Sequence record: PZ049338.1
From: a phage
Length of the DNA: 64,000 nt
Reading direction: 5' to 3' (one strand)
The notes under the pieces were generated by a model, which was given only the letters and a program-made list of their open reading frames with translations, was not told the origin of the DNA and made no database searches. Below, piece after piece: positions 1-28,567 of this stretch (its first letter is position 1; the number at the start of each line of letters is the position of its first letter). Position numbers and translations under genes: made by a program.

Positions 1-791
1 ATTTGCGACTTGTCCAGTCGCCGGACTGATGCGCGCCTGATGGATACGGGGGCGAGTACCTTTTCACTTTACACATCAAATTTTACTCCCCGACTATCTG
101 CGAATTAAAGATTAATCAGTGTTAATTGACGCAGTGACACGCCTCAAACGAGATAATCAACCATTGAAATCAATCAAGGCCGATTAAATAAAACTTGTCG
201 TTGTTGTGCTACGTTGTCGCATTCTTTATATAATCTTTCGGTAGTCTTAGTTGTGAGTAGGTAGAATTTTCATTCATTCGCTATCACTATTCGATTACGC
301 GGCCTCTCGGCCTATCATCTTTTCAATCACTAGCCCACTTATTCTATTCAGTGAGATACCAAATTAACACTATACCGACGCTTAGATGTATAGATGATGT
401 TCTAGTCTGGTTAAATCAGTCTTTACTTTGATGGCAACATGACACGTTGTGTAAACCGCTGGCACTTAAGCCGTCACGCATTGCGTTTTACGCCACCTTT
501 TCAACCTTCCTTGCAAGCCTTGCGACTTTTAAGGTCGGGGCAAACTACTCCGGCTAAGTATTCAGTGTCTTATGTTTCCCACTGTTACCCGCTTTCGTCA
601 ATAAGCCGTAATTTAAAACCATCCGTTAATCAGGTATGATTGCCACATTGTCGGGGGGAAGTATCCGACTGATGTTTACCGTTGGTTATACGGCGGGCTA
701 TTGCCCCTTAAGGTGCGGCCTATGTGGTAGGCTGCCTTTGATGGGTAATGATTAACCTATCCCATCTATTTACTACTGGATAACTAATCTA

Positions 792-813
792 GTTAATCCA
801 CATATATTAAGAG
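792..813 (+). promoter_or_regulatory. Copy D of conserved 22-bp motif GTTAATCCACATATAT(A/T)AAGAG; candidate phage-specific promoter
   Basis: Near-identical 22-mer also found at 21677-21698, 44433-44454 and 63683-63704 (all on - strand); this copy faces rightward toward the late block. Confidence 0.3.
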
Positions 814-1418
814 ATAATCCCTTAATACGTCCTACTTAAAACATTCTAGGTTATCCCTTCCTACCTTGTCAACCTTACTTAGAAAATTCTTTCTTCTGGT
901 TGACTCACCTGATAGTTACTTGGCTATTCAGCTTCACTATCTGGTATGTGGTAGATTATAGGTTTAACCTTTCTACCTTGTCAATAAGATATTTTAATTT
1001 ATCTTGCTGACCTTTACTACCTATCAGGCTTTCGCGTTGTTGCTGCGTCGTCCTGATATGATTAACTATACGCAATCTTTTCAGATATGCAAACTAATAT
1101 TTTAATTATTTTCTAACTTTCTTTCATCTCACTGATTTATAACGGATTATTTCTTGATATTCTTTCTTGATTCAGTGGATAAGATACGGGATACGGCTTA
1201 TCTATCCCATCTATAGCGTCACCTTTCCACCTGGACAAATTGGAACATCAATCACCTTATCTATTCCCTACCTTTCCAGCTCATAGATTCATGCCTGATT
1301 GATGATCTTTCTTGTGAGCTGGAAGCTAAGAGATAACACCGCATGAATTAAAACTAGATAAAGGGCACTAGATAGAAACATGCGGAACGTTATCCCATAC
1401 GTCTTAATTGCTATTACA

Positions 1419-1447
1419 CGGAAGAAAGGAAAGGAAGAAAGGAAGAA
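1419..1447. repeat. Short tandem repeat (GGAAGAAA-like units, about 3 copies)
   Basis: Direct reading: aggaaaggaagaaaggaagaaaggaaga. Confidence 0.6.
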
Positions 1448-1560
1448 AGGAAGATACACCATACGGATTAATGCTTATCAAACTATCGTCGGGTAACGGT
1501 GCAATGATTAAGATTGATGCGACCAATGGTCGTGTTATGACCTGCGGTCATGCGTACCTA

Positions 1561-1722
1561 TTATCAAAGTCAACAATCAAACGATGATTATCAAAGACGA
1601 TTATCAAACGATAACTATCAAAGACGATTATCAAACGATAACCATCAAAGGATAACTATCAAAGGATAACTATCAAAGGATAACTATCAAAGGATAACTA
1701 TCAAAGGATAACTATCAAAGGC
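1561..1722. repeat. Tandem array of 14-bp units GATAACTATCAAAG (5 perfect copies preceded by degenerate copies); iteron-like
   Basis: Direct reading of perfect head-to-tail 14-mers at ~1651-1720 and variants (cgattatcaaa, gataaccatcaaag) upstream. Confidence 0.8.
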
Positions 1723-2843
1723 TGGCATTTTAAACACCGACGTTTTAGCCTCACAAAATAACGGGAAGAAATATAGCTCAGGATACTTACTATTAGTAAG
1801 AACATAACCATGCTGGTTATTATTACCATGCTATCTATGCGATGGCTTATCATTAGGTAGCTAACTATAACATCGTGCATCATATTCCATTGGTATCATT
1901 AGATGACTAATCATGTGCGTGCATAGTATATCACTTGAGATAATAACGCATGAATACTATATCACTTCCCATTATCAGCGGAGGTATATTAATCCCGTGA
2001 ACTAATAGCCAACTAATTACTTATGATATAGTTGCCAATGTTATTAATAGATGAGGTATGGTATCATTTGTATATTAATAATAAGCAAGCTATCTATTCA
2101 CTGGATGCAATTACAGTATTGTGCTTCATCCAATAGGCTGTATAATCGTTGTTACATTGTTAACGGTATATGTGCCGACCCACTTCCCCCTTTTTAAAAG
2201 TTGTGTGCGCAGCTAGCCCCCTATACCACCGCGTGAGAGTATGAGAATGAGGATACCCTAACCAATTAATGGGTGAGAGTGATTGCCCGTGGGTATGACC
2301 TCCCATCAGACAGTACTCATGACCTCCCATCTATCAGTGTCAGTAGAGGCCGAAGGCCTTGGTCTTACCAAAGGTAAGTGACTTCCCATCTATTTTCACT
2401 TTCTTTCAGTGTAAACAGTGTAAATCTGTAAGAAAATTGAAAATTTTGAACTAAAGTTCATGTACGAAGGAGATAGAGATTGATAAGAGATTCTTAAACA
2501 GTTTCTTATATATCTCCTTCTTATCCATTCTTATATATCCTCTCTTCTCTCCTCTATAAAAGCCCCTCTTATATTTAAAAATCCATAAACCAATTACGCT
2601 GAACAAGAAGAAAGTATAAAGGAGGTTATGACCTTCCATCTGATTGATAAGATGAGTACCCATCAACTATTTTAATCTTTTCAGTGTAAGTCTGTAATGT
2701 TTTCCATTTATCAGTGCTATATGTAACTGTAGCATCTATAAGGTTTATGTAATTAATAAATAGATAGATGGGTGGATGGTGGGAACTACATTCGCTGGAA
2801 GCGAAACTATTGCTTCTGGCAATTATTAATTGAAGGAGTGAAC

Positions 2844-3230
2844 ATGTCTGACAATAACGAATTACTTGATTCCATTGTTGAAGGTCGCTCCGTCAAGACT
2901 GGACAGTTTGTGAAGGGTAATACTCAAGGTAAGGGCCGTCCGAAAGGTAGCCGAAACAAAATGACTCAACGAATGTTGAATCGTGTTGCTGAACGAAGTG
3001 AAGATGGTTTGTCTATGGAAGAAATCATGATGGATATCGCCCAAGACCCTCAAATGCCAGCAGAGCTTCGCTTTAAAGCAGCAGCTAAAGTTTCTGACCT
3101 CGTTTATCCTAAAGCATCTTCTGTTGAAGTTAAGATGGACGATAAAGAAAGCATGACTAAAGAACAGATTGATGCTCGCCTTAAAGCTTTGCTTAGTGGT
3201 GGCCATACAACTGAAGACACTGAGGACTAA
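2844..3230 (+). CDS. Putative terminase small subunit
   Basis: ATG at 2844 preceded by GAAGGAG; basic N-terminal GKGRPKGSRNK-type motif; ~0.5 kb upstream of large terminase. ORF-track start at 2772 looks like an upstream extension. Confidence 0.4.
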   Translation: MSDNNELLDSIVEGRSVKTGQFVKGNTQGKGRPKGSRNKMTQRMLNRVAERSEDGLSMEEIMMDIAQDPQMPAELRFKAAAKVSDLVYPKASSVEVKMDDKESMTKEQIDARLKALLSGGHTTEDTED

Positions 3231-3232
3231 AT

Positions 3233-3469
3233 ATGATTGGACTGATATTTGATATTCTTATTCCACGCTTCCGTACTTCTGATTTTTGCCTTGAGGGTAA
3301 TGATGCTGAAGGTTATGACGCTGTGTGTGAATATACGTCACGAGATGTAGGAGAACGCTTCGATAAGATAGCAAGTATCAGTTACTTTCAACTCTTCGGG
3401 TTTGTTCTGTTTCCTAAAGTACATCTAGATTCGATTCGTACGTTTACAAGAGAAGACGTACTGAAATAA
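3233..3469 (+). CDS. Hypothetical protein (78 aa)
   Basis: ORF starting 3 nt after the previous stop; no recognisable domain. Confidence 0.25.
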   Translation: MIGLIFDILIPRFRTSDFCLEGNDAEGYDAVCEYTSRDVGERFDKIASISYFQLFGFVLFPKVHLDSIRTFTREDVLK

Positions 3470-3797
3470 ATTCCTTGCCAGCCAGCGAGGTTGACTTTCG
3501 TCGGGTAAGTCGTGAAAGAACCCGACCGCGAATTCAAAGTCTAGCTAGGGTGACAAGAGTATGACAGGCTGTCCTAGATAAGTGTCGGTACTCAACTAGA
3601 TGTTGTATTGGATGTTAGGTAAGTCAAGAGAGACAAGCCACGGTCGGGGTCGTCCACGTTAAACATTAAAACCCCGCCCCTCGAATACACGACTGAAGAT
3701 TTTCCAAATGACTAAAGGTTCAGAAAATTTTGCAGTTGCCGCTTTGCGGATTAGGGTGAGAGCCCTCGAAAGGTTTATAGTATACACGGAGGTAAGG

Positions 3798-5282
3798 ATG
3801 GATTTTAATGAAATCGACTTAGACTCCCTTCCGGAACATATCAAGTGGGAAATTATTGACTTACTAGAGGAAAGGGAAAGGGTCATTAAATATAATCGGA
3901 TTAACGAATTCGAACCCTACGAGTTCCAAAAGAATTTTTATTCTGCAAGTGCTAAATTCAAAAGACGCTTCCTTTGTGCGGCTAACCGAGTTGGTAAGTC
4001 TTACTCTGAAGCGGTAGAAGTGTTTTATCATTTGTCAGGTCTGTACCCTGAATGGTGGGACGGACACAGATTTAAGAAACCAATCCTCTTATGGGCTGTT
4101 GGTATCACCGGTGACTCAACTCGAAAGGTGTTGCAGAAGGAGTTGTTTGGTACACCGATGGGCAAAGACCAAGATGCATTGGGAACAGGCGCTATCCCTC
4201 GTGACCTGATTGACATTGAGAACATCGAGAAAGACGGTAACATCATCAAAATCGCAAAGGTTAAGCATCATGATAAAAATGGTGACTTTGATGGTTGGTC
4301 TACTATCGAATTCCGCTCAACTCAACAGGGTGAGCACGTACTGATGGGTGCGACTGTAGATTATATATGGTTAGATGAAGAAGACCCGTTCAAGTCTATG
4401 GAAATCTATGCACAGTGCGTTACTCGTACTGCTACTACTGGTGGTTTGATTACCATCACCGCTACTCCTGAGAACGGTTTGACGAAACTGGTAGACCTGT
4501 TCATGAAAGACACGTCAGGTTACTTATATTTTCAGAATGCGACATGGGATGATGCTCCCCACTTAGATGAAGAAACTAAAAAAGAGTTGTTAGCATCTAT
4601 TCCGACATGGCAGCACGAAATGCGAAGCAGGGGGATTCCAATGATGGGCGAAGGTTTGATTTACGATATTGCAGAGTCTTCTATTATTACAGAGCCGATT
4701 GAGATTCCATCTCACTGGCGTAGACTTGCAGCAGTTGATATTGGTATCAGTCACGATACTGCGGTTGTATGGACAGCTTACGATGCTGCTACTGACTGTA
4801 TCTATGTATATGACTGCTACTCAGCAGATGCGGGCGTTCCTGCTATGCACGCTACAGCTATTAATGCTCGTGGCAACTGGATTCCTGTTATTCTTCCACA
4901 CGATGCTGATAACACTGAACGTGGTTCAGGTCGTAGTGTCGCGTCTTATTATGCAGAGGCTGGTGTCAACGTGATGCCTGAGACGTTCTATAATCCACTG
5001 GATTGGACGGGTAAGAAGAATAACTTCGTAGAACCGGGCATTATGGAAATCCTTCAAAGGATGAAGACTGGTCGCTTTAAAGTGTTTAGCACTTGTGGCA
5101 AGTTCTTCGAAGAAATGCGTCGTTATCACCGTAAAGATGGCAAGATTGTCAAAGAATTCGATGATACAATGGACGCAGCACGATATTCAGCACTCTCAGT
5201 AATTGGACGTGGTGTAAGTGCAGGTGAAGCAAGTGCTGGCTACAATGCAGCATTCAATGATAACTGGAATTACAATTACTAA
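3798..5282 (+). CDS. Terminase large subunit
   Basis: ATG at 3798 with GGAGG SD; Walker-A-like CAANRVGKS, DEED-type ATPase region and C-terminal nuclease-like domain; position before portal. Confidence 0.85.
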   Translation: MDFNEIDLDSLPEHIKWEIIDLLEERERVIKYNRINEFEPYEFQKNFYSASAKFKRRFLCAANRVGKSYSEAVEVFYHLSGLYPEWWDGHRFKKPILLWAVGITGDSTRKVLQKELFGTPMGKDQDALGTGAIPRDLIDIENIEKDGNIIKIAKVKHHDKNGDFDGWSTIEFRSTQQGEHVLMGATVDYIWLDEEDPFKSMEIYAQCVTRTATTGGLITITATPENGLTKLVDLFMKDTSGYLYFQNATWDDAPHLDEETKKELLASIPTWQHEMRSRGIPMMGEGLIYDIAESSIITEPIEIPSHWRRLAAVDIGISHDTAVVWTAYDAATDCIYVYDCYSADAGVPAMHATAINARGNWIPVILPHDADNTERGSGRSVASYYAEAGVNVMPETFYNPLDWTGKKNNFVEPGIMEILQRMKTGRFKVFSTCGKFFEEMRRYHRKDGKIVKEFDDTMDAARYSALSVIGRGVSAGEASAGYNAAFNDNWNYNY

Positions 5283-5300: not shown

Positions 5301-7664
5301 ATGTCAGATAATAAAATTACTGGCAACATCACAATTGATGAAGACACTCTGAGCACTCTCCAATACCAAGTTGGTACTTATTATAACCACGCTATTGGTT
5401 ATCATGAAGGGGAACTGGGTGTTCGTGCTCGGATGGGTTGGGAATATTACTACGGTAACCTCCCAGAACCCGTCACAAAGGGCTCTTCTAAGTGGGTTGA
5501 CCGAAGTGTATGGGAAAGTGTGAATGGTACGCTACAGGAGCTTGTAAGCGTTTTTACAAGTGGTGAGGATGCAGTTAAGTTCGCCCCGATGCACTCTAAA
5601 GATGCAGATGCTGCTATTGCAGCGACTAAGATGGTTAACAAGGTTCTTCTCCGTGATAATCCGGGATTCAACGTACTGCATGACGCTTTTAAAGAGTGTC
5701 TGATTGCGCGTAACTCGTTTATCAAACGTTACTGGAAAGTTGAGAAGAAAGTATTCACTGAAGAATTCGATGGTTTAACCAAAGATGAATTAGATGTGTA
5801 CCTCTCTGGTATTAAGGGAGATATTATTGAGTTTTCCTCTGAGATTAAGGATATGTCAGAAGATGAAGACGGTGATAATATCATTGAGACCCATGCTGAA
5901 GAGCAAGAAGAAAATGAATTTGAACAAATCGAAGATGAACCACAGGCACAAGCTATTCCTGAAGACATGACCTCTGCTGGTGACTTGCAAGACGAGCCAG
6001 AACCAGAACCTGTCGAAGAAACCGAAGCTGACAACGAAATTGCTGACATTGCTCCGGGTGCTTTAGCTAAGCCTGAAGAAGATTCCGAAGAAGAGGAAGA
6101 ACAAAACGAAGAAGACCAACTCTTCTGCGGCATTGTTACCTATGAAGTTACAACCGAAGGTGTTTGCGTTGAATATGTTCCTTTCGAAGAAGTAATCATT
6201 GAACCTACGGCTCGTTCCTTGCATGATGCCAACTATATCGGCCATCGTGTTCGTAAATCCAAGGACGAACTGATTCTTATGGGCTTTGATGCTGATGTTA
6301 TTGAAGAATTGAACCCAGCTTCGTCTGATATTGAAGCTGGAGTCATCGCTAACTCTCGTGTTAACAACCTGAACCCACTTAACGTGAGTGATGTGTTGTC
6401 TGTAGGTGACGAGAAGGCAGATAAACTGTGGTTGCATGAAAACTACATTAAGACATCTCTCATCTCTGGTCGTTTGGAGATTTTGCAGGTGTTTACACTC
6501 AACGGTCAGATTCTGGAAGTGAACCGTGTCAACGAATTCCCATTCGAGACAATGACTCCGTTCCCAATTCCGGGTTCTGTGTGGGGTGAATCAGTATTTG
6601 ACATTACTAAAGATGTACAGGATTTATCTACGACGCTGATTCGTGGTATGATTGATAACATCATGAACGCTAACTTCCGTAGATATGAAGCCATCAAAGG
6701 TCAGTACGACCGAGAATCATTACTGAACAACCGTCCGGGTGCAGTCGTTGAGGTTCTATCTCAAGGTGCTGTTACTCCTTTCCCATATCACCAATTACCA
6801 CAAGGTATCGACAACCTGCTTACTTACATTAATAGCAAGAAGGAAGAACGTACTGGTGTTAGTAAGGTAGGGCAAGGTCTTGACCCAAACGTGTTTAAGA
6901 ACGATAACTCGACTGCCACTGTAAATATGGTCATGAGTGCTGCTCAAAACCGTTTGCGCATGGTTGCTCGTAACATCGCTCAACGCGGTATGATGAGTTT
7001 GATGCTGTCCATCTACAACTTGATTCGTGAGAATGGTAAGACACCTATCAACGTTGAAACAGCTAATGGTAATGTAACACTTGACCCACGTAAACTGCCA
7101 CATCGTACTCAAATGATTGTAGCGGTAGCGGTAGGTGATGGTGAGCGTCGTGAACGTGCAGCAGGTTTGCAGAGTTTGATGATGTCTATGACTCAGATTC
7201 CTCAATTGCAACAGTTCCTGCAACCGAACAACGCATACTACTTAGCAACTCAACTGTTTGAGACTATGGGTATCTATGATGTGGAAAACTATCTGACTCC
7301 AATTGATAAGTTACCTCCTCCGAAACCAGACCCGATTCAAGAACTGACTATCCAGCAGTTGCAGGAGACAGTTAAGCAGATTGGTGTTACAACACAGAAG
7401 ATTCTGTCCGACGTTAATAATGAAGACCGTAAATCAGAGTTTGAGCAGCAGAAAGCTGCGGATGAAATGAGTCTGAAGATTAACGAGTCCCGCTCTAAGG
7501 TAGACAAGGAAGCTGAGGAGGTGGAGATTAAGCGACTGGAATTGCAACTTAAACGTGAGGAGTTGGCTATCCAACGTGAGTTGGTTGAGCTTAAGAAACA
7601 AGAGATGCTTGTTGAGGCTCAATTGGAAGCACGACAGACTCGCCCGGTTTCACTTGGGAGGTAA
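5301..7664 (+). CDS. Portal protein (787 aa) with ~90-aa acidic low-complexity insertion
   Basis: Size and position directly after large terminase; good SD; C-terminal coiled coil. Confidence 0.65.
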   Translation: MSDNKITGNITIDEDTLSTLQYQVGTYYNHAIGYHEGELGVRARMGWEYYYGNLPEPVTKGSSKWVDRSVWESVNGTLQELVSVFTSGEDAVKFAPMHSKDADAAIAATKMVNKVLLRDNPGFNVLHDAFKECLIARNSFIKRYWKVEKKVFTEEFDGLTKDELDVYLSGIKGDIIEFSSEIKDMSEDEDGDNIIETHAEEQEENEFEQIEDEPQAQAIPEDMTSAGDLQDEPEPEPVEETEADNEIADIAPGALAKPEEDSEEEEEQNEEDQLFCGIVTYEVTTEGVCVEYVPFEEVIIEPTARSLHDANYIGHRVRKSKDELILMGFDADVIEELNPASSDIEAGVIANSRVNNLNPLNVSDVLSVGDEKADKLWLHENYIKTSLISGRLEILQVFTLNGQILEVNRVNEFPFETMTPFPIPGSVWGESVFDITKDVQDLSTTLIRGMIDNIMNANFRRYEAIKGQYDRESLLNNRPGAVVEVLSQGAVTPFPYHQLPQGIDNLLTYINSKKEERTGVSKVGQGLDPNVFKNDNSTATVNMVMSAAQNRLRMVARNIAQRGMMSLMLSIYNLIRENGKTPINVETANGNVTLDPRKLPHRTQMIVAVAVGDGERRERAAGLQSLMMSMTQIPQLQQFLQPNNAYYLATQLFETMGIYDVENYLTPIDKLPPPKPDPIQELTIQQLQETVKQIGVTTQKILSDVNNEDRKSEFEQQKAADEMSLKINESRSKVDKEAEEVEIKRLELQLKREELAIQRELVELKKQEMLVEAQLEARQTRPVSLGR

Positions 7665-23269: not shown

Positions 23270-23777
23270 AGTAGTTTAAGTCAGCTTCAAGTAATGCGTA
23301 ATGGATAACTTTCAAAAGATCTTGAAGACCATTCTTATCTTTGTGCCGGTATGCATACTTAATCATATTGCACTGTTGAAAATTTAACTGAGGATTTGCG
23401 TTGTAGAATTCAATTGGCTGAATACGCCCACTACCTGCTTGATAGTGAGAACCACCAACCATAGTGCTTAATGAATTACCCTTAGATGCCATCGCTAATT
23501 GCTCCGTGTGGTCATGTGAATAGTCTACTGGGGCAGTTTTATGTCCAGTAAGCATTGGTACGCAAATGTGGACTTCATTACGCTTACCCACATCAATTGC
23601 CTTTCTTTCATTACTTAATTCATACCCTGTCATTTGGGCTAGGTTATGAAGTTGGTCAGACACTATCTCATACATCTTTCTAAAAGCTTTGGCAGATAAG
23701 GATGCTTCCTCGTATTTTCGGCTTAATACCTGAAGTTCCGCCTCAGTCTCGAAGTGATTAATCATCGTCTTCATCAT
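23208..23777 (-). CDS. Hypothetical protein (189 aa); weak DUF3310-like resemblance
   Basis: GGSHY...IQPIEF motif region; assignment from memory only. Confidence 0.35.
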   Translation of the reverse strand: MMKTMINHFETEAELQVLSRKYEEASLSAKAFRKMYEIVSDQLHNLAQMTGYELSNERKAIDVGKRNEVHICVPMLTGHKTAPVDYSHDHTEQLAMASKGNSLSTMVGGSHYQAGSGRIQPIEFYNANPQLNFQQCNMIKYAYRHKDKNGLQDLLKVIHYALLEADLNYCDNPEEVAKFKQQAKELFGG

Positions 23778-27997: not shown

Positions 27998-28567
27998 TTA
28001 ACTCTGGAAGTTTACTGATTCTCTGTCAATGTTAGCGACTAATTGACTTCGAATACGATGGAGACTGACGTAAATGTTATTTGAAGACATGCCATACTTA
28101 TTGGCAACATCTTTAGTCGTGAGGTTCTTCAGGTAAACATCGGTGAACAATTCACGTTCTGATTCCTTAAGAGTCTCAAAAGCTCTCTGAACAAACGAGG
28201 AAGCTTCATCGGCTAGTAACTCACGAACAGGGTCAGTTAACCCATTATCATGGCATTCAAATTCGAGGACATTATCGTACATCTCCGTATCAACTCTGTC
28301 GAACTCTCGGCGTACATAACCATAACGAACATTGTTCGCAATAGTACCTATAACACCGCCTAACTTATCCCACTGGATTCTGTCCCAATACTGCCAAATC
28401 CTTAGCAGAGTTTCTTGAGCCAAATCTTCAGCCAGATGGTAATCTTTTTCCATGTAGTAGAATTGTTTCTGGAGAGGTTTCCAGAACTCTTCGTACAACT
28501 CTTCAAAAGTATATGTTTCTCGTTTTGGAGTAGGGGCACTAATTCTCTTAGCCATCATACATTCCAT
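27998..28567 (-). CDS. Phage-encoded sigma-70 family (ECF-like) sigma factor
   Basis: Region-2-like DLAQETLLRIWQYW and region-4 HTH LTTKDVANKYGMSSNNIYVSLHRIRSQL. Confidence 0.7.
   Translation of the reverse strand: MECMMAKRISAPTPKRETYTFEELYEEFWKPLQKQFYYMEKDYHLAEDLAQETLLRIWQYWDRIQWDKLGGVIGTIANNVRYGYVRREFDRVDTEMYDNVLEFECHDNGLTDPVRELLADEASSFVQRAFETLKESERELFTDVYLKNLTTKDVANKYGMSSNNIYVSLHRIRSQLVANIDRESVNFQS

What the first reader, a model, noticed from the sequence alone, without database searches (positions are those of the whole stretch)
740..2770. Two-kilobase non-coding region packed with several distinct repeat families
No credible ORF occupies ~1-2770. It contains (i) about 7 same-orientation copies of a (T/C)CCCATCTAT core, often preceded by ATGACC (e.g. 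766-777, 1204-1215, 2293-2303, 2321-2333, 2383-2395, 2630-2641); (ii) a 14-bp tandem array GATAACTATCAAAG (1561-1722); (iii) GGAAGAAA tandem units (1419-1447); (iv) two copies of a ~45-bp unit ending in TTCAGTGTAA...CTGTAA (2385-2430, 2655-2698); and (v) two CCTTTCTACCTTGTCAA copies (854-872, 971-990). The density suggests an origin of replication, packaging or terminal-repeat region, or a cluster of protein-binding sites, rather than junk.
Basis: seen in the sequence. Interest (0 to 1): 0.55.

Follow-up and report, generated by a model that had tools for sequence, protein, structure and literature searches.

The report
Phage promoter and DNA-packaging control region
The 2.8-kb gene-free stretch is the control and genome-junction region of a Salmonella-type phage: it holds early and late promoters and a probable DNA-packaging site conserved across the phage family, while its most eye-catching 14-base repeat array is a recent expansion that the closest relatives lack.

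Summary
The repeats are real. The window comes from a Grimontviridae phage about 92% identical to the plasmid-dependent phages Hi226 and Lu221. The gap lies between leftward early genes and the rightward terS/terL/portal operon, and every relative examined has a 2.0-2.8 kb gap there. Item (v) is two near-perfect leftward sigma-70 promoters. Item (iv) is the upstream part of two late promoters matching the validated phage 7-11 consensus GTAAtg-16-aCTA. Item (ii), the 14-bp array, is missing from Hi226 and Lu221 and from every other relative, so it is a lineage-specific minisatellite, not a conserved origin. Item (i) is part of a 13-bp motif, ATGA-N5-CAT(C/G). Across nine genus-level lineages it occurs 33 times on the + strand and never on the - strand just right of a 90-bp conserved element, and hardly anywhere else. 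That element resembles the right boundary of the 193-bp terminal repeat of phiEco32-like phages, where terminase cuts. It shows no support for either an RNA structure or a conserved ORF. My best reading is that the element plus motif arrays form the packaging recognition and cleavage site beside terS. This is inferred, because no physical ends are known for this family. Interest is moderate.

The parts
1..835 (-). Long untranslated leader of the leftward early transcripts. The first early gene lies about 100 bp left of window position 1.
   Evidence: There is no - strand ORF of 30 aa or more here. The homologous Hi226 and Lu221 CDS ends at record position 3487, and window position 1 equals record position 3590. 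Only 601-835 (and on into the promoter cluster to 1100) folds better than shuffles in 200-nt windows (z -2.4 to -5.6, both strands); 1-600 does not. The whole 845-nt - strand gives z -3.3 from 20 shuffles. The leader is not conserved with 7-11 at the DNA level.
843..872 (-). Early sigma-70 promoter PE1 (TTGACA-18-TAGAAT).
   Evidence: It matches 11 of 12 consensus positions. The region is 96-98% conserved in Hi226 and Lu221. Phage 7-11 has leftward sigma-70 promoters annotated in the same gap, and two were validated by primer extension (PMC8948821).
955..984 (-). Early sigma-70 promoter PE2 (TTGACA-18-TATAAT). It is the other half of item (v).
   Evidence: It matches 12 of 12 consensus positions and is a 30-nt direct repeat of PE1 (family D4).
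1065..1150 (-). Candidate third early promoter PE3 (TTTGCA-17-TATAGT, 1065-1093) with a conserved A/T-rich upstream block (1094-1150).
   Evidence: The promoter scan gives 9 of 12. The block is 100% identical in Hi226 and Lu221. An 18-nt core, AAGAAAGTTAGAAAATAA, is near-identical to the sequence just upstream of the -35 of the phiEco32 right-end early promoter.
757..769 (+). CTATCCCATCTAT copy 1. It carries the right-half similarity to the 13-bp motif and forms part of a hairpin in the early leader.
   Evidence: (D19).
1202..1214 (+). CTATCCCATCTAT copy 2.
   Evidence: It is disrupted in Lu221, so it is probably dispensable.
1420..1455 (+). Purine-rich GGAAGAAA/GGAAA micro-repeat, function unknown.
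   Evidence: TRF detects it. It is conserved in Hi226 and Lu221. In 7-11 and pSal-SNUABM-01 the homologous stretch is an A/G-rich tract without the repeat.
1560..1722 (+). 13/14-bp tandem array (GATAACTATCAAAG, about 11 units). It is a lineage-specific minisatellite.
   Evidence: TRF detects it. Hi226 and Lu221 carry a single unit at this position. No comparable array occurs at this position in any of 9 relatives' gaps. It was not found in plasmids or IMG/VR.
1841..1914 (-). Two - strand copies of ATGA-N5-CATC (1841-1853 and 1902-1914), forming the left arm around the conserved element.
   Evidence: Both copies are conserved in Hi226 and Lu221. BUCT695, P59, LAh_8, APT65 and Vp_R1 also have - strand copies 150-410 nt left of the element.
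2172..2265 (+). Family-conserved 90-bp element: GACCCACTTCCCCCTTTTT-N16-GCTAGCCCCCTATACCACC...AATGAGGATACCCTAA. It is the candidate terminase recognition and cleavage site. The cut is predicted between 2214 and 2215 by analogy with the Kuravirus GCT|AGCC site.
   Evidence: nhmmer finds it in 10 of 11 relatives tested besides the window, at E 1e-28 to 5e-7, and in an uncultivated contig. It is always on the + strand, 390-670 nt upstream of terS; Vp_R1 matches only weakly (E 0.15). It resembles the Kuravirus DTR right boundary. It shows no RNA structure or covariation and no conserved ORF.
2295..2390 (+). Three + strand motif copies: ATGACCTCCCATC at 2295 and 2319, and GTGACTTCCCATC at 2378.
   Evidence: Copy number and spacing vary between the window, Hi226 and Lu221.
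2428..2453 (+). Distal late-promoter-like site, GTAAGA-16-ACTA.
   Evidence: It matches the 7-11 consensus exactly. It is conserved in Hi226, Lu221, 7-11, GAP52, P59 and BUCT695.
2463..2523 (+). 13-nt inverted repeat just downstream of the distal late promoter, followed by a CT-rich tract (about 2500-2560). Function unknown.
   Evidence: I18. BUCT695 has a comparable CT-rich tract.
2628..2664 (+). Two + strand motif copies 24 nt apart: ATGACCTTCCATC at 2628 and ATGAGTACCCATC at 2652.
   Evidence: The Shine-Dalgarno-like sequence in front of the first copy is deleted in Hi226, which argues against a mini-ORF.
2694..2719 (+). Proximal late promoter, GTAATG-16-GCTA. It is the homologue of the experimentally mapped 7-11 promoter P1.
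   Evidence: PMC8948821. The window encodes an 82%-identical homologue of the 7-11 late sigma factor gp47 at 28013-28555 on the - strand.
2766..2790 (+). Conserved G-rich block (GATGGGTGGATGGTGGGAACTAC) in the terS 5' UTR.
   Evidence: It is identical in Hi226 and Lu221. A 22-nt stretch is 100% identical in the Aeromonas phage BUCT695.
2791..2822 (+). 32-nt hairpin insertion present only in this phage.
   Evidence: It is absent from Hi226 and Lu221. It is terminator-like by pattern, and the local fold z-score is -4.2.
2844..3230 (+). Small terminase (TerS)-like gene, the first gene of the late operon.
   Evidence: A family profile hits the solved small terminases 7JOQ (E 8e-4) and 6W7T (PaP3, E 4e-3) as its two best PDB matches. 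There are weak matches to DUF5681 and to a PHROG small-terminase family. The Kuravirus homologue is assigned as TerS in PMC9965538.

Best explanation
The gene-free stretch is the divergent control and genome-junction region of a Grimontviridae phage. It has four kinds of content.

1. Three tandem host sigma-70 promoters (843-1093, - strand) fire leftward through a leader of roughly 840-1,070 nt into the early genes.

2. Two promoters for the phage's own late sigma factor (2428-2453 and 2694-2719, + strand) fire rightward into terS, terL and the portal gene.

3. Between them sits a 90-bp element (2172-2265) conserved across the whole family and related to the right boundary of the 193-bp direct terminal repeat of phiEco32-like phages. 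It is flanked by oriented copies of a 13-bp motif, ATGA-N5-CAT(C/G): five on the + strand to its right and two on the - strand to its left. I infer that this unit is the packaging site. Terminase, probably through the adjacent TerS, would bind the motif array, cut within the element near 2214/2215, and package rightward starting with terS. The early promoter end would then be packaged last and injected first.

4. The 14-bp array, the GGAAGAAA micro-repeat and the 32-nt hairpin are local slippage or insertion products with no conserved role.

Shown here: the promoter matches and their conservation, the family-wide element and motif architecture, and the absence of the array in relatives. Inferred: terminase binding and cutting, the cut position, and the direction of packaging.
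For: Genome context and synteny. Every relative examined has a 2.0-2.8 kb gap at this position.

Early promoters: one search gives 12/12 and 11/12 consensus matches. Two homologous 7-11 promoters were validated in vivo (PMC8948821). The block upstream of PE3 is shared with the phiEco32 early promoter region.

Late promoters: with exact 16-nt spacing the 7-11 consensus gives 10 sites in the window. All are co-oriented with the local genes and most are intergenic. Both sites upstream of terS are conserved across genera. A gp47 sigma homologue is present.

Conserved element.

Homology of the element with the Kuravirus DTR boundary:
- A shared C5T5 run, a 16-19 nt spacer and GCTAGCCCC.
- Both Kuravirus cut sites read GCT|AG.
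- A Kuravirus boundary profile hits three intermediate uncultivated phages at E 9e-4 to 1e-2. Its best hit is the C-run of the element in the window (E 0.085) and in Vp_R1, LAh_8, P59 and APT65; GAP52's best hit is off-target, and 7-11, BUCT695 and L022 gave no hit at E<=10.
- Kuravirus DTR positions 130-170 are reported as the most conserved part of the repeat (PMC9965538).

Motif architecture, across nine genus-level representatives: 33 copies on + and 0 on - within +60 to +520 of the element, 8 on - and 3 on + within -450 to 0, and only 3 copies in 55 kb elsewhere. Enrichment gives P about 1e-70 and right-arm orientation gives P 2e-10. In contig L025 the array stays next to the element although terS is 1.2 kb away.

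TerS identity of the adjacent gene.

The 14-bp array is absent from relatives.
Against: - No physical ends are known for any Grimontviridae phage. PhageTerm reported 'novel ends' for Privateer and no packaging class for SeKF_80.
- The similarity of the window itself to the Kuravirus boundary is weak (E 0.085) and rests on two short blocks plus intermediates.
- I could not find a second (left) repeat boundary, and the public records carry no terminal redundancy.
- Kuravirus phages have a 45-50% identical TerS but no ATGA-N5-CAT motif near their repeat. The motif may therefore be bound by another protein.
- Many motif copies sit 30-130 nt upstream of the two late promoters, so a transcriptional role is equally compatible with their position.
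- GCTAGCC itself is not conserved in 7-11 or LAh_8.
Confidence: 0.55

Rival explanations
1. The ATGA-N5-CAT(C/G) arrays are binding sites for a transcription regulator, or an upstream promoter element, that controls the two late promoters in front of terS. They would have nothing to do with packaging. The conserved 90-bp element would be a separate signal.
For: In every genus the nearest motif copy starts 33-73 nt upstream of a GTAA -35 element. The copies are strictly co-oriented with the promoters, and each is often followed by CAGTGT at a fixed 16-nt offset. Kuravirus has a related TerS but lacks the motif, and it also uses a different late sigma factor and promoter type (PMC8948821).
Against: The other late-promoter sites in the window (8961, 14067, 20390, 43160, 40781, 29669) have no motif copy nearby; motif hits outside 1841-2664 are at background level. 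The distance to the -35 element is not fixed. Copies in the opposite orientation lie left of the element, where there is no late promoter. In L025 the array follows the element and not terS. 7-11 P1 is transcribed in vitro with core RNA polymerase plus gp47 alone.
Confidence: 0.2
2. The region is the phage origin of replication. The conserved GC-rich element and its oppositely oriented 13-bp repeats would bind an initiator, and the AT-rich flanks would melt.
For: The repeats have a dyad arrangement around a conserved core. The flanks are AT-rich, with GC 0.29-0.33 at 1951-2175 and 2401-2775 against 0.45-0.51 in the core. Promoters nearby could activate an origin. The arrangement is conserved across the family.
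Against: There are no DnaA boxes or classical 17-22 bp iterons. The only true tandem array, the 14-bp one, is absent from relatives. The core resembles a mapped terminase cut region and not any known origin. The adjacent gene is terS, not an initiator. GC skew follows gene orientation only.
Confidence: 0.12
3. The repeats encode products: very short peptides beginning M-T-S-H (for example 2628-2675, MTFHLIDKMSTHQLF), or a structured non-coding RNA.
For: Every motif copy starts with ATG or GTG. One copy is preceded by AAGGAGG. Parts of the region fold better than shuffled sequence.
Against: The fourth 'codon' is always CAT and never CAC, while the second and third 'codons' change non-synonymously. 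The Shine-Dalgarno-like sequence is deleted in Hi226. Copy spacing is 24, 25 or 26 nt, so the reading frame is not kept. Rfam finds nothing at E<=1. The element has z -0.2 and no covarying pairs. No frame stays open across the element in all phages.
Confidence: 0.04

Closest known systems
Concatemer junction of phiEco32-like (Kuravirus) phages, with a 193-bp direct terminal repeat
   Same: The order of features is the same: leftward early sigma-70 promoters with a shared upstream block, then the C5T5...GCTAGCC element, then a late promoter, then terS and terL. TerS and TerL are homologous.
   Different: The gap here is 2.8 kb and gene-free, against about 1 kb plus five small genes in Kuravirus. 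The repeated motif is ATGA-N5-CAT(C/G) and not ACGGGGA. The late promoters are of a different type. No terminal repeat has been demonstrated in this family.
Phage 7-11 transcription signals (Lavysh et al. 2022, PMC8948821)
   Same: The proximal late promoter at 2694-2719 is the sequence homologue of the mapped promoter P1. The early sigma-70 promoters lie in the same gap. The sigma factor gp47 is 82% identical.
   Different: That paper does not describe the 90-bp element, the 13-bp motif arrays or a second, distal late promoter. Outside the conserved islands the DNA is not alignable.
SPP1 pac (pacL-pacC-pacR) and lambda cos (cosN-cosB R sites)
   Same: Several small-terminase binding sites lie next to, or on both sides of, the cleavage site, immediately upstream of the small terminase gene and overlapping its promoters. 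This comparison rests on my own knowledge and on the summary in PMC7672466.
   Different: There is no sequence similarity. Binding and cutting are untested here. The spacing is much larger, about 850 bp in all.
PaP3 cos site (GCCGGCCCCTTTCCGCGTTA), bound by PaP3 TerS
   Same: The TerS family is detectably homologous. The left block of the element, GCCGACCCACTTCCCCCTTTT, aligns by eye with the cos 20-mer at about 15 of 20 positions with one gap (sequence). Treat this as a lead only.
   Different: The similarity is too short for statistics, and the GCCG part is limited to the Hi226/Lu221-like phages. PaP3 makes cohesive ends.
T7 concatemer junction (terminal repeat, flanking short-repeat arrays, A1-A3 early promoters)
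   Same: Three strong tandem host-type early promoters sit next to the genome end, together with short repeats. This is from my own knowledge and was not tested here.
   Different: The sequences and terminase are unrelated. It is an analogy only.
Iteron-type replication origins
   Same: Both have tandem short direct repeats in a non-coding, AT-rich region.
   Different: The 14-bp array is not conserved even in phages 92% identical. The unit is shorter than typical iterons, and there is no adjacent initiator gene or DnaA box.

Membership tests
Sigma-70 (host) early promoters | -35 TTGACA and -10 TATAAT hexamers 16-18 bp apart | tested here: met
   984->955 matches 12/12, 872->843 matches 11/12, and 1093->1065 matches 9/12, all on the - strand.
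Sigma-70 (host) early promoters | Directed into the early gene block and conserved in relatives | tested here: met
   All point leftward toward the - strand genes. They are 96-100% conserved in Hi226 and Lu221. 7-11 has annotated promoters in the same gap, two of them validated.
Sigma-70 (host) early promoters | Transcription start sites observed in this phage | not testable with these tools
   This needs primer extension or RNA-seq.
Phage 7-11 gp47-sigma late promoters | Bipartite GTAAtg-(16)-aCTA consensus | tested here: met
   2428-2453 reads GTAAGA-16-ACTA and 2694-2719 reads GTAATG-16-GCTA.
Phage 7-11 gp47-sigma late promoters | Cognate sigma factor encoded by the phage, and consensus sites in front of other late genes | tested here: met
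   A gp47 homologue with 82% identity lies at 28013-28555 on the - strand. All ten 16-spaced sites are co-oriented with the local genes.
Direct-terminal-repeat boundary / terminase cut site (Kuravirus type) | Sequence homology to the mapped DTR right boundary | tested here: inconclusive
   The C5T5-N16-GCTAGCCCC blocks are shared. The Kuravirus profile gives E 0.085 for the window and 9e-4 to 1e-2 for three intermediate phages, and its best hit falls on the element's C-run in 5 of 9 family representatives.
Direct-terminal-repeat boundary / terminase cut site (Kuravirus type) | A second boundary defining a repeat, or terminal redundancy in records | tested here: not met
   No second cut-site-like sequence was found, although the phiEco32 positive control also failed in this test. 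The 7-11 and BUCT695 records have no redundancy between their ends.
Direct-terminal-repeat boundary / terminase cut site (Kuravirus type) | Physical DNA ends at this position | not testable with these tools
   This needs reads or virion DNA. The literature reports 'novel' or unclassified ends for this family.
Small-terminase recognition arrays (SPP1 pac / lambda cosB type) | Several repeated sites clustered next to the cleavage site and the terS gene | tested here: met
   Seven copies lie within 1841-2664 against about 0.13 expected for that length (P 2e-12). The pattern holds family-wide.
Small-terminase recognition arrays (SPP1 pac / lambda cosB type) | Specific binding by the small terminase | not testable with these tools
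   This needs EMSA or footprinting.
Iteron-type origin of replication | Tandem iterons conserved among related replicons, with an adjacent initiator gene or DnaA boxes | tested here: not met
   The 14-bp array is absent from Hi226, Lu221 and the other relatives. No DnaA-box match was seen by inspection of the sequence, and the neighbouring gene is terS.
CRISPR array | Repeats separated by unique spacers of similar length | tested here: not met
   The units are head-to-tail with no spacers.
Known structured RNA families / tRNA | Match to a covariance model, or covariation-supported structure | tested here: not met
   Rfam gives no hit at E<=1 in 1-4000, and there are no tRNAs. The element has no covarying pairs and z -0.2.
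Minisatellite / variable-number tandem repeat | Head-to-tail units with copy number differing between close relatives | tested here: met
   There are about 11 units here against 1 in Hi226 and Lu221. The five terminal units are identical, which indicates recent expansion.

The most novel reading that the evidence does not exclude
Grimontviridae may use an end-generating and packaging signal not yet described. It would consist of a roughly 90-bp conserved core flanked by divergently oriented arrays of ATGA-N5-CAT(C/G) sites spread over about 850 bp. Terminase would make one or several cuts there, giving the 'novel' or multiple termini that PhageTerm reports for Privateer and SeKF_80. In this lineage there may also be site-specific single-strand nicks at TACTGTGAC on one strand.
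Probability: 0.2. Interest if true: 0.6.

Novelty: new member of a known kind. Interest (0 to 1): 0.4.

Why it matters
No phage of this family (7-11, Privateer, the plasmid-dependent Hi226 and Lu221, and Aeromonas, Cronobacter and Vibrio relatives) has defined genome ends or a known packaging signal. Published analyses report unclassifiable termini. A conserved element related to a mapped terminase cut region, with a strictly oriented motif array beside terS, gives precise coordinates to test. It also gives a defined fragment for packaging or transduction assays in phages proposed as tools against resistance plasmids. The analysis also shows that the most conspicuous repeat in a region can be the least meaningful one.

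Tried and rejected
- Rfam with permissive thresholds and a tRNA search on the region found nothing.
- RNA folding and alignment folding of the conserved element gave z -0.2 and no covariation.
- Reading the motif copies or the element as small ORFs failed. CAT is invariant, the other 'codon' changes are non-synonymous, the Shine-Dalgarno-like sequence is lost in Hi226, spacer indels are not multiples of three, and no frame is open in all phages.
- The phiEco32 gp36 promoter motif tAATGTAtA is not enriched. TGTAGCA as a genome-wide promoter motif was also not supported.
- CAGTGTAA as a genome-wide motif: 3 of its 5 copies are local, and the other two lie on the wrong strand for the local genes.
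- A search for a second DTR boundary by similarity to the predicted cut site gave no signal, and the phiEco32 positive control failed too.
- A check for terminal redundancy between the starts and ends of the 7-11 and BUCT695 records found none.
- The starts of public records relative to the element are not consistent, so they are uninformative.
- Looking for the 14-bp array in plasmids, because the phage is plasmid-dependent, and in IMG/VR found nothing relevant.
- Metagenome scans for the element gave no exact match, and the 120 degenerate-pattern hits were all chance apart from 7-11 and LAh_8.
- The tf nick consensus does not explain the ATGAC motif copies, since there are no exact sites in 1-2850.
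- The Arch Virol 2011 paper on the 7-11 genome is not held in the library.
Full report
**What the window is.** The first 3 kb match only two records closely: Salmonella phages PKM.Hi.22.6 (Hi226) and PKM.Lu.22.1 (Lu221), at 92-93% identity. These are plasmid-dependent, elongated-head podophages of the family Grimontviridae. Window position 1 corresponds to record position 3590 in both, about 100 bp beyond the last leftward CDS. Rightward genes run from 2844 to about 21.5 kb: a TerS-like gene, TerL at 3708-5282, portal at 5301-7664, and structural genes. Everything beyond that is on the - strand. The gene-free stretch therefore separates two divergent transcription units. Each of the other relatives whose full gap was examined has a 2.0-2.8 kb gap at the same place: 7-11, P59, vB_CsaP_009, LAh_8, Vp_R1 and BUCT695.

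**Observation.** TCCCATCTAT occurs exactly four times, all between 760 and 2393 on the + strand, and nowhere else in 64 kb. No ORF in the gap exceeds 71 aa. There is no tRNA and no Rfam match.

**Item (v) is a pair of early promoters.** Read on the - strand, the two CCTTTCTACCTTGTCAA copies are TTGACA-18-TATAAT (984->955, 12/12) and TTGACA-18-TAGAAT (872->843, 11/12). A third, weaker site lies at 1093->1065. Its upstream A/T-rich block is 100% identical in Hi226 and Lu221. It shares a near-identical 18-mer with the sequence just upstream of the -35 of the phiEco32 right-end early promoter. In 7-11 three leftward sigma-70 promoters are annotated in the same gap, and two were confirmed by primer extension (PMC8948821). 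These promoters would transcribe a leader of roughly 840-1,070 nt that has no - strand ORF of 30 aa or more. The segment 601-1100 folds better than shuffled sequence, but the leader is not conserved between genera.

**Item (iv) is the upstream part of two late promoters.** The 7-11 late sigma factor gp47 recognises GTAAtg-(16)-aCTA, and one mapped promoter, P1, lies in front of gene 1, the TerS-like gene (PMC8948821). The window encodes an 82%-identical gp47 homologue. With exact 16-nt spacing the consensus gives ten sites in the window. All are co-oriented with the local genes and most are intergenic. Two lie in the gap: 2428-2453 and 2694-2719. Both sites are conserved across genera, and the proximal one aligns with 7-11 P1.

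**Item (ii) is a lineage-specific minisatellite.** In a three-way alignment the array (window 1579-1716) is one long gap in Hi226 and Lu221, which carry a single unit there. TRF finds no comparable array at this position in the gaps of nine relatives; the only other multi-copy array is Vp_R1's 11-bp run of ATGATAG units right of its conserved element. The array is also absent from plasmids and IMG/VR. The last five units are identical, which indicates recent slippage. The 32-nt hairpin at 2791-2822 is likewise an insertion found only in this phage.

Window 2172-2265 is the only part of the gap that BLAST aligns with an Aeromonas phage. An HMM built from six sequences finds it in 10 of 11 relatives tested, at E 1e-28 to 5e-7, with only a weak match in Vp_R1 (E 0.15). 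It also finds it in an uncultivated contig. It is always on the + strand, 390-670 nt upstream of the TerS-like gene. It has three blocks: GACCCACTTCCCCCTTTT, a variable spacer of roughly 16-20 nt followed by (GCTAG)CCCCCTATACCAC, and AATGAGGATACCC. It is a local GC peak between AT-rich flanks. It is not supported as an RNA: z is -0.2 and no pairs covary. It is not supported as a gene either: spacer indels are not multiples of three, and no frame is open in all phages.

**Relation to the phiEco32 terminal repeat.**
- In phiEco32, SU10, Paul and ECBP2 the 193-bp direct terminal repeat ends in GAGGACTCCCCCTTTTT-N19-GC(G/C)CT|AG(C/G)C.
- The window reads CTTCCCCCTTTTT-N16-GCAGCT|AGCC.
- The left Kuravirus cut has the same GCT|AGCC context.
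- Kuravirus DTR positions 130-170 are reported as the most conserved part of the repeat (PMC9965538).
- A profile of the Kuravirus boundary hits three intermediate uncultivated phages at E 9e-4 to 1e-2. Its best hit is the C-run of the element in the window (E 0.085) and in Vp_R1, LAh_8, P59 and APT65; GAP52's best hit is off-target, and 7-11, BUCT695 and L022 gave no hit at E<=10.
- The order of features is collinear between the two groups: early promoter block, boundary element, late promoter, terS.

I take the homology as probable. The inferred cut at 2214|2215 is an extrapolation.

**Item (i) is part of a family-wide oriented motif.** The ATGACCTCCCATC copies generalise to RTGA-N5-CAT(C/G).
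- In the window, 8 of the 17 hits in 64 kb lie in 1841-2664 (one is a palindromic double count, so 7 distinct copies). Five are on the + strand right of the element and two on the - strand left of it (P 2e-12).
- The same holds in the relatives, with lineage-specific centres: CCTCC, CCTGG, CCTCT, CTGGG, CCCCG and ATAGG.
- Across nine genus-level representatives there are 33 + and 0 - copies within +60 to +520 of the element, 8 - and 3 + copies within -450 to 0, and only 3 copies in 55 kb elsewhere.
- CAT is never CAC, the 'codons' between ATG and CAT change non-synonymously, spacing varies (24, 25 or 26 nt), and the Shine-Dalgarno-like sequence before one copy is deleted in Hi226. The constraint is therefore on the nucleotides and not on a peptide.
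- In contig L025 the array stays beside the element although terS is 1.2 kb away.

**Mechanism proposed.** The gene next to the arrays is a small terminase by profile match to the solved TerS structures 7JOQ and 6W7T and by published assignment of its Kuravirus homologue. Repeated TerS sites beside or around the cleavage site, just upstream of terS and overlapping its promoters, are the known layout of SPP1 pac and lambda cosB. I therefore propose that the element plus arrays form the packaging site. Packaging would run rightward from terS, so the early-promoter end would be packaged last and injected first.

This is inference, and several points weigh against it:
- No ends are known for this family.
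- No second repeat boundary was found.
- The public records carry no terminal redundancy.
- Kuravirus lacks the motif despite a related TerS.
- A role in regulating the late promoters fits the positions equally well.
- An origin of replication cannot be excluded, but nothing specific supports it.

**Comparison and novelty.** The promoters are homologues of signals already characterised in 7-11. The minisatellite is ordinary. I found no description of the conserved element or its oriented motif arrays in the papers searched. If they function as proposed, they are a new member of the pac/cos class of packaging signals and not a new kind of system.

Noticed in passing
window 23265-63283, - strand (sites ending at 23273, 33908, 43174, 45858, 52062, 56756, 61656, 63283): The nick-site consensus of Pseudomonas phage tf, TACT/RTGMC (PMC3517423), occurs 8 times exactly. 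All 8 are on the - strand, and 7 are TACTGTGAC against about 0.5 expected. Allowing one substitution gives 16 on - and 1 on +. CTACTGTGA is among the most frequent 9-mers in the window, with 9 copies on - and none on +. This suggests site-specific single-strand nicks, which could also explain the odd PhageTerm results for this family. In 7-11 (positions 5001-55000) the bias is weak: 2 on - and 1 on +.
   Followed up: partly
window 3470-3707: The spacer between the small ORF that follows the TerS-like gene (3233-3469) and TerL is non-coding and contains no tRNA. In contrast, 7-11, GAP52, ECO319P1 and BUCT695 carry 1-7 tRNA genes there. It holds an 18-nt inverted repeat (3511-3528 / 3641-3658) but shows no excess folding (z -0.1) and no Rfam hit.
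   Followed up: partly
window 8961, 14067, 20390 (+); 43160, 40781, 38880, 36211, 29669 (-): [quoted passage not shown] All are co-oriented with the local genes and most are intergenic. They amount to a predicted late-promoter map for this phage.
   Followed up: partly
window 2500-2560 and 2766-2790; L005 (BUCT695) 556-596: A CT-rich tract lies downstream of the distal late promoter, and a conserved G-rich block (GGGTGGATGGTGGGAAC) lies just before the terS ribosome-binding site. BUCT695 has both as well. The two could pair in the longer late transcript and modulate terS translation. This was not tested.
   Followed up: no
window 2174-2195 compared with the PaP3 cos 20-mer: GCCGACCCACTTCCCCCTTTT aligns by eye with the PaP3 cohesive-end sequence GCCGGCCCCTTTCCGCGTTA at about 15 of 20 positions with one gap. 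PaP3 TerS binds that sequence in vitro, and PaP3 TerS is the closest solved homologue family of the TerS-like protein here.
   Followed up: no
window 2791-2822: A 32-nt GC-rich hairpin is inserted in the terS 5' UTR of this phage only; it is absent from Hi226 and Lu221. It looks like a terminator by pattern, yet it sits between the late promoter and the gene.
   Followed up: partly
L012 3540-3600 and L010 60-110 (phiEco32 concatemer junction): phiEco32 carries five same-strand copies of ACGGGGA(A/G) on both sides of its left terminal cut. This may be the Kuravirus counterpart of the ATGA-N5-CAT arrays.
   Followed up: no
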